Positions 8,798 through 11,700 of a stretch of 64,000 nt of DNA are shown here, piece after piece (position 1 is the stretch's first letter; every line of letters starts with the position of its first letter). A program made the position numbers. This DNA is from Escherichia coli (GTDB lineage Bacteria > Pseudomonadota > Gammaproteobacteria > Enterobacterales > Enterobacteriaceae), in the NCBI RefSeq assembly GCF_022846255.1, contig NZ_AP025682.1; one strand, 5' to 3'.

Positions 8798-11700
8798 TGA
8801 AAACGCCCACCATTCCCACCCTTCTGGGGCCGGACGGCATGACATCGCTGCGCGAATATGCCGGTTATCACGGCGGTGGCAGCGGATTTGGAGGGCAGTT
8901 GCGGTCGTGGAACCCACCGGGTGAAAGTGTGGATGCAGCCCTGTTGCCCAACTTTACCCGTGGCAATGCCCGCGCGGACGATCTGGTACGCAATAACGGC
9001 TATGCCGCCAACGCCATCCAGCTGCATCAGGATCATATCGTCGGGTCTTTTTTCCGGCTCAGTCATCGCCCAAGCTGGCGCTATCTGGGCATCGGGGAGG
9101 AAGAAGCCCGTGCTTTTTCCCGCGAGGTTGAAGCGGCATGGAAAGAGTTTGCCGAGGATGACTGCTGCTGCATTGACGTTGAGCGAAAACGCACGTTTAC
9201 CATGATGATTCGGGAAGGTGTGGCCATGCACGCCTTTAACGGTGAACTGTTCGTTCAGGCCACCTGGGATACCAGTTCGTCGCGGCTTTTCCGGACACAG
9301 TTCCGGATGGTCAGCCCGAAGCGCATCAGCAACCCGAACAATACCGGCGACAGCCGGAACTGCCGTGCCGGTGTGCAGATTAATGACAGCGGTGCGGCGC
9401 TGGGATATTACGTCAGCGAGGACGGGTATCCTGGCTGGATGCCGCAGAAATGGACATGGATACCCCGTGAGTTACCCGGCGGGCGTGCCTCGTTCATTCA
9501 CGTTTTTGAACCCGTGGAGGACGGGCAGACTCGCGGTGCAAATGTGTTTTACAGCGTGATGGAGCAGATGAAGATGCTCGACACGCTGCAGAACACGCAG
9601 CTGCAGAGCGCCATTGTGAAGGCGATGTATGCCGCCACCATTGAGAGTGAGCTGGATACGCAGTCAGCGATGGATTTTATTCTGGGCGCGAACAGTCAGG
9701 AGCAGCGGGACAAGCTGACCGGCTGGATTGGTGAAATTGCCGCGTATTACGCCGCAGCGCCGGTCCGGCTGGGAGGCGCAAAAGTACCGCACCTGATGCC
9801 GGGTGACTCACTGAACCTGCAGACGGCTCAGGATACGGATAACGGCTACTCCGTGTTTGAGCAGTCACTGCTGCGGTATATCGCTGCCGGGCTGGGTGTC
9901 TCGTATGAGCAGCTTTCCCGGAATTACGCCCAGATGAGCTACTCCACGGCACGGGCCAGTGCGAACGAGTCGTGGGCGTACTTTATGGGGCGGCGAAAAT
10001 TCGTCGCATCCCGTCAGGCGAGCCAGATGTTTCTGTGCTGGCTGGAAGAGGCCATCGTTCGCCGCGTGGTGACGTTACCTTCAAAAGCGCGCTTCAGTTT
10101 TCAGGAAGCCCGCAGTGCCTGGGGGAACTGCGACTGGATAGGCTCCGGTCGTATGGCCATCGATGGTCTGAAAGAAGTTCAGGAAGCGGTGATGCTGATA
10201 GAAGCCGGACTGAGCACCTACGAGAAAGAGTGCGCGAAACGCGGTGACGACTATCAGGAAATTTTTGCCCAGCAGGTCCGTGAAACGATGGAGCGCCGCG
10301 CAGCAGGTCTTAAACCGCCCGCCTGGGCGGCTGCAGCATTTGAATCCGGGCTGCGACAATCAACAGAGGAGGAGAAGAGTGACAGCAGAGCTGCGTAATC
10401 TCCCGCATATTGCCAGCATGGCCTTTAATGAGCCGCTGATGCTTGAACCCGCCTATGCGCGGGTTTTCTTTTGTGCGCTTGCAGGCCAGCTTGGGATCAG
10501 CCGCCTGACGGATGCGGTGTCCGGCGACAGCCTGACTGCCCAGGAGGCACTCGCGACGCTGGCATTATCCGGTGATGATGGCGGGCCACGACAGGCCCGC
10601 AGTTATCAGGTCATGAACGGCATCGCCGTGCTGCCGGTGTCCGGCACGCTGGTCAGCCGGACGCGGGCGCTGCAGCCGTATTCGGGGATGACCGGTTACA
10701 ACGGCATTATCGCCCGTCTGCAACAGGCTGCCAGCGATCCGATGGTGGACGGCATTCTGCTCGATATGGACACACCGGGCGGGATGGTGGCGGGAGCATT
10801 TGACTGTGCTGACATCATCGCCCGTGTGCGAGACATAAAACCGGTATGGACGCTGGCCAACGACATGAACTGCAGTGCAGGTCAGCTGCTTGCCAGCGCC
10901 GCCTCCCGGCGTCTGGTCACGCAGACCGCCCGGACAGGCTCCATCGGCGTCATGATGGCTCACAGTAATTACGGTGCTGCGCTGGAGAAACAGGGTGTGG
11001 AAATCACGCTGATTTACAGCGGCAGCCATAAGGTGGATGGCAACCCCTACAGCCATCTACCGGATGATGTCCGGGAAACACTGTAGTCCCGGATGGATGC
11101 AACCCGCCGGATGTTTGCACAGAAGGTGTCGGCATATACCGGCCTGTCCGTGCAGGCTGTGCTGGATACCGAGGCTGCAGTGTACAGCGGTCAGGAGGCT
11201 ATTGATGCCGGACTGGCTGATGAACTTGTTAACAGTACCGATGCGATCACCGTCATGCGTGATGCACTGGATACACGTAAATCCCGTCTCTCAGGAGGGC
11301 GAATGACCAAAGAGACTCAATCAACAACTGTTTCAGCCACTGCTTCGCAGGCTGACGTTACTGGCGTGGTGCAAGCGACGGAGGGCGAGAACGCCAGCGC
11401 GGCGCAGCCGGACGTGAACGCGCAGATCACCGCAGCGGTTGCGGCAGAAAACAGCCGCATTATGGGTATCCTCAATTGTGAGGAGGCCCACGGACGTGAA
11501 GAACAGGCACGCGTGTTGGCAGAAACCCCCGGAATGACCGTGGAAACGGCCCGCCGCATTCTGGCCGCAGCACCACAGAGTGCACAGGCGCGCAGTGACA
11601 CTGCGCTGGATCGTCTGATGCAGGGGGCACCGGCACCGCTGGCTGCAGGTAACCCGGCATCTGATGCCGTTAACGATTTGCTGAACACACCAGTGTAAGG

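What the first reader, a model, noticed from the sequence alone, without database searches (positions are those of the whole stretch)
11081..11095. In-frame amber codon truncates gene C two codons upstream of the internal nu3 start
C starts normally at GTG 10379 and matches lambda gpC through ...HLPDDVRETL, then TAG at 11084-11086 where lambda has Gln (CAG). The same frame continues SRMDATRR... and ATG 11093 opens a 201-aa Nu3-length ORF. A full 439-aa gpC therefore cannot be made without amber suppression, while Nu3 is untouched. It is a single C-to-T change, placed where it spares the nested gene.
Basis: partly seen in the sequence, partly recalled or inferred. Interest (0 to 1): 0.6.

Follow-up and report, generated by a model that had tools for sequence, protein, structure and literature searches.

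The report
Amber-stopped head protease in dead prophage
A lambda-like prophage in an E. coli chromosome carries a real, inherited stop codon that cuts its head-maturation protease gene C in mid-domain, and it also has a frameshift in the DNA-packaging gene nu1, so this is ordinary prophage decay and not a new mechanism.

Summary
Codon 236 of the lambda-type C gene is TAG (window 11084-11086) where lambda has CAG. It is a single C-to-T change. The nested 201-codon Nu3 frame (11093-11698) is open.

The stop is not a read error. The same allele occurs in independent assemblies and read sets, and RefSeq already marks it as a pseudogene ("internal stop") in two complete E. coli genomes.

It is rare: 3 of about 4,900 C-homologous places in 5,426 complete genomes, and 0 of 50,697 phage records.

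The stop falls inside the S49 protease fold, which spans residues 81-298. Ser166 and Lys218 are kept, but about 62 residues of the fold are lost, so a null allele is the likely result.

The window's prophage also has a 1-bp deletion in nu1 (small terminase subunit), another essential gene.

There is no suppressor tRNA in the window, and no other in-frame TAG in 22 late genes. One other carrier strain has wild-type tRNA-Gln genes.

About half of all possible nonsense changes in C would spare Nu3, so the position is not remarkable.

A mild curiosity remains: the same TAG sits on two C haplotypes and in prophages at three chromosomal sites. The likely causes are inter-prophage recombination, plus possibly a recurrent mutation.

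Verdict: an ordinary, already-annotated kind of lesion; low interest.

The parts
10379..11698 (+). Lambda-type gene C (head maturation protease fused to scaffold), here a pseudogene interrupted by one in-frame TAG
   Evidence: 1320 bp collinear with lambda C 4418-5737, 97.5% identical, no indels. Pfam Peptidase_S49 covers residues 150-297, E=6e-43. Synteny is A-W-B-C/Nu3-D-E.
10379..11086 (+). The ORF that can actually be translated from the C start: 235 aa plus TAG. It holds the N-terminal part of the S49 protease, including Ser166 and Lys218.
   Evidence: The exact product is on record as BDH32615.1 and GDA26582.1.
11084..11086 (+). Amber codon replacing Gln236 (CAG in lambda); C->T at 11084
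   Evidence: The exact-word search finds it in only 2 of 5426 complete E. coli genomes and in 0 phage records.
11093..11698 (+). Nested Nu3 scaffolding-protein ORF, 201 aa, intact. Its first ~60 residues are also the C-terminal part of the S49 fold of full-length gpC.
   Evidence: The exact product is on record as BDH32616.1.
6153..6697 (+). nu1 (terminase small subunit) pseudogene. A 1-bp deletion between 6392 and 6393 (lambda CAGGAACTATT becomes CAGGACTATT) gives 82 native residues plus 16 out-of-frame residues.
   Evidence: The deletion is shared with L002 and absent from all 5426 complete genomes.
6672..24846 (+). The rest of the lambda-like head and tail operon (A, W, B, D, E, FI, FII, Z, U, V, G, T, H, M, L, K, I, J), all open

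Best explanation
The TAG is a genuine, heritable nonsense mutation that turns the head-maturation protease gene C of a lambda-like E. coli prophage into a pseudogene.

Shown: translation from the C start stops after residue 235. The stop lies inside the S49 (SppA-like) fold, which spans residues 81-298. The catalytic-dyad residues Ser166 and Lys218 are kept, but about 62 residues of the fold and the whole scaffold (Nu3) domain are lost.

Inferred: the fragment is inactive or unstable, and in any case cannot be carried into the prohead.

Shown: the Nu3 ORF is intact and starts 6 nt after the stop. Inferred: Nu3 can still be made from its own start, and there is no untranslated gap that would cause polarity on D and E.

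Shown: the prophage also has a frameshift in nu1. C and nu1 are both essential in lambda, so this prophage cannot make infectious particles unaided. This is ordinary prophage decay.

Inferred: the allele occurs elsewhere because lambdoid prophages in E. coli recombine freely and can be complemented by co-resident relatives, and perhaps also because this CAG has been hit more than once.
For: - The sequence shows a single C->T at codon 236, with no indels against lambda.
- The allele is real. The exact 235-aa product is on record from two GenBank genomes. L002 is 100% identical to the window over 5398-11199, including both lesions. The same TAG is in L003-L009 and L012-L017, which come from NCBI, Logan and ENA assemblies.
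- RefSeq marks C as a pseudogene, 'internal stop', in strains 94EC and AHS8C65RI.
- The allele is rare: 3 places in 2 of 5426 complete genomes, against 4913 C-homologous places. It is absent from 50,697 phage records, from IMG/VR and from the GTDB species representatives.
- The stop is inside the domain. The alignment to solved SppA structures 3RST and 4KWB covers residues 81-298. Pfam S49 covers residues 150-297.
- A second lesion is present: a 1-bp deletion in nu1.
- Another carrier subgroup has a deletion of about 13 bp in gene A, and 94EC has a second internal-stop pseudogene in the same prophage. This fits relaxed selection.
- C, nu3 and nu1 are all essential in lambda (PMC10695390, Table 1; PMC3224144).
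- No rescue is in sight. The only tRNA in the window is Arg-CCT. None of the 22 late genes has any other in-frame TAG. 94EC has wild-type tRNA-Gln anticodons.
Against: - Loss of function is inferred, not measured.
- Many carriers of the TAG have otherwise intact head and tail operons.
- The allele sits in prophages at three different chromosomal sites and on two haplotypes, and its product is indexed in 87 blocks of the public collection. That is more persistence and spread than a naive 'dead gene' picture suggests.
- The rest of the window's host genome could not be examined for suppressor tRNAs.
Confidence: 0.85

Rival explanations
1. Sequencing or assembly error: the true sequence has CAG.
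For: The change is a single base. The window's own reads are not available. No complete RefSeq genome matches the window's C gene exactly (best 98.6%).
Against: The same TAG is found in independent assemblies from different sources and methods (NCBI drafts, Logan assemblies of SRA runs, an ENA metagenome assembly, and two complete RefSeq genomes). It occurs on flanks that differ from the window by up to 2.5%. L002 reproduces both the TAG and the nu1 deletion on 5.8 kb of identical sequence.
Confidence: 0.02
2. The amber is read through often enough to give a working phage. This could be by a host amber suppressor (a supE-type tRNA-Gln would restore the wild-type Gln236) or by natural near-cognate read-through. 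The allele would then be conditional and not null.
For: Only a few gpC copies are needed per prohead (own knowledge). Many carriers have otherwise intact morphogenesis operons, and the allele is widespread at low frequency. The few polymorphisms seen within the TAG clade are all at third codon positions.
Against: - In the window the nu1 frameshift blocks packaging regardless.
- There is no suppressor tRNA in the window.
- 94EC has wild-type tRNA-Gln genes, 2x TTG and 2x CTG.
- The supE-type tRNA word occurs in 156 of 5426 genomes, and all 60 listed are K-12 laboratory lineages.
- The base after the stop is U, which by own knowledge is a context that favours termination.
- The allele is absent from all 50,697 sequenced phage records and from IMG/VR.
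- Some carrier sublineages have accumulated further lesions.
Confidence: 0.06
3. Functional split: the 235-aa fragment and Nu3, which carries the remaining ~60 residues of the S49 fold at its N-terminus, reassemble non-covalently into an active protease that Nu3 targets to the prohead.
For: The two ORFs together contain every residue of gpC except 236-238. Ser166 and Lys218 are in the fragment, and the rest of the fold is in Nu3. C-Nu3 and Nu3-Nu3 interactions are reported (PMC3224144).
Against: There is no evidence that such fragment complementation occurs. The arrangement is very rare and absent from isolated phages. In homologues the fold is continuous across the break. Carriers accumulate further lesions.
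Confidence: 0.03
4. Stop-codon recoding: the phage reads TAG as glutamine, as known for some gut phages that use genetic code 15.
For: Lambda has Gln at this codon. None of the 22 late genes uses TAG as its terminator (13 TGA, 9 TAA).
Against: There is one in-frame TAG in about 19 kb of late coding sequence. The window holds no tRNA with a CUA anticodon. The TAG is a rare polymorphism, with CAG at more than 99.9% of homologous places. Finding 0 of 22 TAG terminators is not unusual for E. coli phage genes.
Confidence: 0.005
5. Host-selected 'grounding': the nonsense allele persists and spreads because disabling head maturation benefits the lysogen, for example through less productive lysis or retention of useful prophage genes.
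For: The same TAG occurs in prophages at three chromosomal sites and in several mosaics. The product is indexed in 87 blocks.
Against: A head-protease defect does not prevent induction or lysis, so the benefit to the host is unclear (inference). Overall frequency is about 0.06% of C copies. Recombination among lambdoid prophages and hitch-hiking explain the pattern without selection (PMC2669165).
Confidence: 0.04

Closest known systems
Classical lambda C amber mutants and the C/Nu3 nested-gene arrangement (Shaw & Murialdo, Nature 283:30, 1980, seen only as a citation in PMC8508860; gpC as protease: Medina et al., J Mol Biol 2010, cited in PMC3224144 and PMC10695390)
   Same: A nonsense codon in the part of C upstream of the internal Nu3 start abolishes full-length gpC but leaves the Nu3 frame intact. 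C is essential for plaque formation.
   Different: Those are laboratory-selected conditional lethals on the lambda backbone. This is a natural allele in a chromosomal prophage 2.5% diverged from lambda. It is accompanied by a nu1 frameshift.
RefSeq pseudogenes 'S49 family peptidase, internal stop': GUJ28_RS01760 in E. coli 94EC and QMY05_RS17385 in E. coli AHS8C65RI
   Same: The identical TAG at the same codon in the same local sequence block.
   Different: They are on a different C haplotype, with about 34 differences in 1320 bp. Their Q/lysis modules differ, their integration sites differ (ydfJ, and argU/ompT), and nu1 is intact.
The defective lambdoid prophage pool of E. coli O157 Sakai (Asadulghani et al. 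2009, PMC2669165)
   Same: Lambda-like prophages carry point defects in morphogenesis genes and coexist and recombine with relatives. This explains how a defective allele can appear in several mosaics.
   Different: No experimental data exist for this prophage. The host here is not shown to carry a helper prophage.
Independent C pseudogene in E. coli 97.0259 (locus L018)
   Same: C is truncated close to the Nu3 start (241-aa product), and a stand-alone 201-aa Nu3 is called.
   Different: The lesion is a 73-bp tandem duplication with CAG retained at codon 236. Another integrase-bearing element interrupts E.

Membership tests
Lambda gpC-type prohead protease/scaffold gene (C with nested Nu3) | S49 (SppA-like) peptidase domain with a Ser/Lys dyad | tested here: met
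   Pfam PF01343 covers residues 150-297, E=6e-43. The alignment to SppA structures 3RST and 4KWB covers residues 81-298. Ser166 lies in the CSAG motif, and Lys218 aligns with the mutated Lys199 position of those chains.
Lambda gpC-type prohead protease/scaffold gene (C with nested Nu3) | In-frame internal start giving a ~201-aa Nu3 that shares the C terminus | tested here: met
   ATG 11093 to TAA 11698 is 201 aa and 97% identical to lambda Nu3.
Lambda gpC-type prohead protease/scaffold gene (C with nested Nu3) | Position between portal gene B and decoration/capsid genes D and E | tested here: met
   tblastn of lambda proteins gives the order nu1-A-W-B-C/Nu3-D-E-...-J.
Lambda gpC-type prohead protease/scaffold gene (C with nested Nu3) | Uninterrupted 439-codon reading frame | tested here: not met
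   There is one internal stop at codon 236. It is therefore filed as a pseudogene of this family, not as a functional member.
Nonsense pseudogene in a defective prophage | Premature stop where intact homologues have a sense codon, with the allele rare among homologues | tested here: met
   TAG is at 3 places in 2 of 5426 genomes, against 4913 homologous places. It is in 0 of 50,697 phage records.
Nonsense pseudogene in a defective prophage | Truncation removes part of an essential domain | tested here: met
   The stop at 236 lies inside the fold spanning 81-298. Loss of activity itself is inferred.
Nonsense pseudogene in a defective prophage | Other inactivating lesions in the same element | tested here: met
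   1-bp deletion in nu1. Related carriers have a ~13-bp deletion in A or a second internal-stop gene.
Nonsense pseudogene in a defective prophage | Demonstrated loss of phage production | not testable with these tools
   This needs induction, EM and complementation experiments.
Stop-codon-recoded phage (TAG read as Gln) | Many in-frame TAG codons in late genes | tested here: not met
   One in-frame TAG in 22 late genes.
Stop-codon-recoded phage (TAG read as Gln) | Phage-encoded suppressor tRNA (CUA anticodon) | tested here: not met
   ARAGORN finds only tRNA-Arg(CCT) in the 64-kb window. The early region of the prophage lies outside the window.
Programmed translational read-through | The stop codon is conserved among homologues | tested here: not met
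   More than 99.9% of homologous places lack the TAG word. No phage record has it.
Amber-suppressor host (supE-type) | tRNA-Gln gene with a CUA anticodon in the host | tested here: inconclusive
   The window's host genome is not available. In carrier strain 94EC the four tRNA-Gln genes are wild type. The supE-type word is found in 156 of 5426 genomes, and all 60 listed are K-12 laboratory lineages.

The most novel reading that the evidence does not exclude
The TAG allele is not simply dead. It could be a long-lived, helper- or read-through-dependent variant of the lambda head module. In that reading, full-length gpC is supplied in trans by co-resident lambdoid prophages or in trace amounts by Gln-inserting read-through, which lets the allele keep moving between prophages at different chromosomal sites. 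That would make it a natural conditional-defective phage module maintained in wild E. coli.
Probability: 0.06. Interest if true: 0.4.

Novelty: already known. Interest (0 to 1): 0.12.

Why it matters
It matters little. For annotation, it shows that this prophage should be called defective, with C and nu1 both pseudogenes, and that the stand-alone "hypothetical proteins" called here (BDH32615.1 and BDH32616.1) are the two halves of a broken C/Nu3 gene. The one modestly interesting point is at population level. The same nonsense codon is found on two haplotypes and in prophages at three integration sites. This illustrates how freely lambdoid prophages exchange head-gene segments, defective ones included. 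If carriers turned out to yield viable phage, that would show a natural conditional or helper-dependent head module, but nothing here indicates it.

Tried and rejected
1. A 71-bp BLAST query around the TAG gave no 100% hit, and I first read this as 'private allele'. That was wrong, because a TAG copy with one other mismatch scores the same as a CAG copy. The 31-base exact-word design corrected it to 2 genomes and 3 places.
2. An exact 42-mer scan of the GTDB species representatives and an exact 28-mer scan of IMG/VR found nothing.
3. L015 appeared to lack genes E and FI. It is a 100-N scaffold gap, not a deletion, so I discarded it as evidence of decay.
4. The primary gpC paper (Medina et al. 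2010) could not be read. One literature query was malformed. A search for the strain name TRECRb50 found no paper.
5. Laboratory lambda Cam mutant: rejected. The gene has 33 natural substitutions against lambda and sits in a chromosome.
6. Mutational hotspot by Dcm methylation: rejected by inspection. The mutated C is in CTGCAGT, not in CCWGG.
7. I could not list all 156 genomes with a supE-type tRNA, so I checked 94EC directly. AHS8C65RI was not checked.
8. The second TAG-bearing place in 94EC could not be located, because the search tool lists only one place per record.
9. I did not run structure prediction or the large protein-database searches. The alignment to solved SppA structures already fixes the domain limits.
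Full report
**1. Observation**

The sequence is as described. GTG 10379 opens a frame that is collinear with lambda C (4418-5737): 1320 bp on both sides, no indels and 33 substitutions (97.5% identity). Codon 236 is TAG (11084-11086) where lambda has CAG, and the only difference in that codon is C->T at 11084. Two codons later, ATG 11093 opens a 201-aa ORF ending at 11698 that matches lambda Nu3 over its full length. Translation from the C start therefore gives a 235-aa product.

**2. Setting**

The window is E. coli chromosome carrying a lambda-like prophage.

- A DLP12-like module of ybcN, rusA, Q, a porin gene and lysis genes occupies about 1-5,900.
- The lambda order nu1-A-W-B-C/Nu3-D-E-FI-FII-Z-U-V-G-T-H-M-L-K-I-J runs from 6,153 to 24,846, at 89-100% protein identity to lambda.
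- lom and the tail-fibre genes follow, to about 30,000.
- An integrase (32,336-33,529, minus strand) lies next to tRNA-Arg(CCT) (33,655-33,729).
- Ordinary chromosomal genes follow: mlaA, fadL, fadI, fadJ, a fimbrial usher operon, and then pdxB-usg-truA-dedA.
- The chromosomal flank is at best 99.4% identical to complete RefSeq E. coli genomes.
- The exact truncated gpC and the exact Nu3 of the window are on record as adjacent GenBank proteins, BDH32615.1 and BDH32616.1 (locus tags TRECRb50_14310 and TRECRb50_14320), on a 4.94-Mb E. coli contig. That contig is probably the source (inference).

**3. What the stop does to the protein**

Pfam places the Peptidase_S49 domain at residues 150-297 (E=6e-43). 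The alignment to the solved Bacillus SppA structures 3RST and 4KWB covers residues 81-298.

Ser166 (motif NCSAG) aligns with the SppA nucleophile position. Lys218 aligns with the position that is Ala in those chains; from my own knowledge they are K199A mutants, so Lys218 is the likely general base. Both residues precede the stop.

However, about 62 residues of the fold (236-298) and the whole scaffold part are lost. The stop therefore lies inside the catalytic domain and not at a domain boundary. The first ~60 residues of Nu3 are the tail of the protease fold.

That the fragment is inactive is an inference from this anatomy. C, nu3 and nu1 are all listed as essential in lambda (PMC10695390, Table 1; PMC3224144).

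**4. Real or error**

The TAG is real.

- The exact 235-aa product occurs in a second genome, GCA_005387665.1 (GDA26582.1).
- That locus (L002) is 100% identical to the window from 5398 to 11199 apart from a 98-N scaffold gap. The identical stretch includes the TAG. Downstream it diverges to about 98%.
- The same TAG, in the same local context, is in L003-L007 and L012-L017. These come from NCBI drafts, Logan assemblies of SRA runs and ENA metagenome assemblies.
- It is also in two complete RefSeq genomes.

**5. How common**

My first test was a 71-bp query that gave no 100% hit among 2,986 places. It was misleading, because a TAG copy with one other mismatch scores the same as a CAG copy.

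A 31-base query with the T in the centre forces megablast's 28-base exact word to include the T. That query finds the allele in 2 of 5,426 complete E. coli genomes, at 3 places: strain 94EC, where both of its two C copies carry it, and strain AHS8C65RI, where one of two copies does. This is against 4,913 C-homologous places overall, or about 0.06%.

The allele is absent from 50,697 phage records, from IMG/VR and from the GTDB species representatives.

**6. Two haplotypes, several mosaics, three sites**

The window and L002 carry one C haplotype. L003-L009 and L012-L017 carry another. The two differ at about 36 of 1320 positions and are identical only over 10997-11127.

Within the second haplotype, the carriers share an almost invariant block of about 2 kb (the end of B, all of C and Nu3), flanked by different D/E/FI allele blocks. 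Their nearest CAG relative is 99.6% identical. This fits one origin followed by recombination. The truncated product of this haplotype is indexed in 87 blocks of the public collection.

The prophages sit at different chromosomal sites and have different integrases and Q/lysis modules:

- 94EC: between rspB and ydfJ.
- AHS8C65RI: intD/argU on one side and ompT on the other.
- The window: beside the argW-linked integrase.

For the window's haplotype, I cannot separate an independent C->T at the same CAG from a conversion tract of at most 131 bp. The shared central block is the common allele in E. coli. Only 15 transition-type nonsense sites exist upstream of Nu3, so recurrence is plausible. Recombination and cross-complementation among defective lambdoid prophages are documented (PMC2669165).

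**7. Further decay**

The window's nu1 has a 1-bp deletion between 6392 and 6393 (lambda CAGGAACTATT becomes CAGGACTATT). This gives 82 native residues followed by 16 out-of-frame residues. The C-terminal part of Nu1, which binds gpA (PMC3224144, Table 2), is lost.

- L002 shares this deletion. L003-type carriers lack it. No complete genome has it.
- Another carrier group (L012 and 16 similar contigs) has a deletion of about 13 bp in gene A.
- The 94EC prophage has a second internal-stop pseudogene.
- All other head and tail genes in the window are open.

The pattern is the TAG first, followed by different secondary lesions in different sublineages. That is what relaxed selection on a defective element would give. 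Several carriers are still otherwise intact over the regions seen.

**8. Rescue mechanisms tested**

- The only tRNA in the window is Arg-CCT.
- There is no other in-frame TAG in 22 late genes, so TAG-to-Gln recoding is not supported. The absence of TAG terminators (13 TGA, 9 TAA) is not significant for 22 genes.
- The supE-type tRNA-Gln(CUA) word occurs in 156 of 5,426 genomes, and all 60 listed are K-12 laboratory lineages. This serves as a positive control and shows how rare such suppressors are in natural isolates.
- In 94EC the four tRNA-Gln genes have wild-type anticodons.
- The window's own host could not be scanned.
- The base after the stop is U, which from my own knowledge favours termination.

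**9. Position of the stop**

Of the 94 possible single-step nonsense changes in C, 46 lie upstream of Met239. About half of random nonsense hits would therefore spare Nu3, and the closeness to the Nu3 start is a post hoc coincidence.

The stop is 6 nt from the Nu3 ATG. There is therefore no long untranslated gap, and lambda late transcription is Q-antiterminated, so polarity on D and E is not expected (inference). I see no canonical Shine-Dalgarno sequence 5-10 nt upstream of the Nu3 ATG in either allele. Any effect of the C->T, 9 nt upstream of the ATG, on Nu3 initiation is unknown.

**10. Explanation and rivals**

The best explanation is a real nonsense pseudogene of C in a prophage that is doubly defective (C and nu1), which is ordinary prophage decay (confidence 0.85). 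The rivals are:

- Sequencing error: 0.02, effectively refuted.
- Functional read-through or suppression: 0.06, and irrelevant to viability here because of nu1.
- Split-protease complementation by Nu3: 0.03.
- Recoding: below 0.01.
- Host-selected 'grounding': 0.04, an overlay on the main explanation and not a true alternative.

**11. Comparison and novelty**

This is the natural counterpart of the classical lambda C amber mutants that defined the C/Nu3 overlap (Shaw & Murialdo 1980, seen only as a citation). The identical allele is already annotated as a pseudogene in RefSeq. An independent C lesion close by, a 73-bp duplication, exists in E. coli 97.0259.

It is a known kind of lesion, and the allele itself is already recorded. 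Interest is 0.12. The only mildly notable aspect is that the same stop is spread across haplotypes and integration sites.

Noticed in passing
window 6153-6697 (deletion between 6392 and 6393): nu1 (terminase small subunit) carries a 1-bp deletion relative to lambda, giving 82 native plus 16 out-of-frame residues. It is a second lethal lesion in the same prophage. L002 shares it, and it is absent from all 5426 complete E. coli genomes.
   Followed up: yes
L002 versus window 11200-16082: L002 (GCA_005387665.1) is identical to the window up to 11199. It then carries a different set of Nu3-3', D, E and FI-to-G alleles (about 98.4% identity). This indicates a recombination breakpoint just downstream of the TAG in one of the two lineages.
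   Followed up: partly
NZ_CP047576.1 (E. coli 94EC); one copy at L008 11311-12630, the other not located: Both C-homologous places in 94EC carry the TAG word. This suggests duplication or gene conversion between two resident lambdoid prophages, and it means no intact helper copy of C in that strain.
   Followed up: no
window 32336-33729: An integrase (397 aa, minus strand) lies directly beside tRNA-Arg(CCT), at the tail-fibre end of the prophage. In the usual lambda order the integrase is at the far end from the tail genes. This may be a remnant of a second, argW-linked element or the result of a rearrangement.
   Followed up: no
window 30434-31873 (+): A 479-aa ORF between the tail-fibre module and the integrase has no match in NCBIfam, PHROGs or PADLOC. 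Pfam gives only faint alpha/beta-hydrolase hints (E about 0.04).
   Followed up: partly
window 29045-29713 (-): A 222-aa ORF matches phrog_2132 (unknown function, E=3e-156) and gives a weak hit to the PADLOC model mad2 (E=7e-4). It may be a cargo gene next to the tail-fibre assembly gene.
   Followed up: no
window 2077-3234 (-): An OmpC/NmpC-type porin gene (385-aa ORF) lies on the opposite strand between the Q antiterminator and the lysis genes, as in the DLP12 prophage.
   Followed up: no
window 6672-28990: None of the 22 late genes ends in TAG (13 TGA, 9 TAA). This is not statistically unusual, but it is relevant when considering amber suppression.
   Followed up: partly
L018 2214-3606 (E. 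coli 97.0259, AEZL02000017.1): An independent C pseudogene. A 73-bp tandem duplication just upstream of the Nu3 start truncates C at 241 aa, with CAG retained at codon 236. In the same prophage an integrase/AlpA-bearing element interrupts gene E.
   Followed up: partly
L012 about 485 (Logan SRR33871051, plus 16 similar contigs): A subgroup of TAG carriers has a deletion of about 13 bp in terminase large-subunit gene A, which splits it into 417-aa and 233-aa calls.
   Followed up: partly
L012-L016 3733-4320: In most of the L012-L016 carriers, the gene caller starts the downstream ORF at Met7 of Nu3 (195 aa) and not at the 201-aa start. This may be linked to the C->T variant at the position equivalent to window 11104.
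   Followed up: no
L022 11784-14255 (E. coli 94EC): The TAG-carrying Qin-type prophage of 94EC also has an 'internal stop' pseudogene (3'-5' exoribonuclease domain protein). It also carries transporter and regulator cargo genes in its middle.
   Followed up: no
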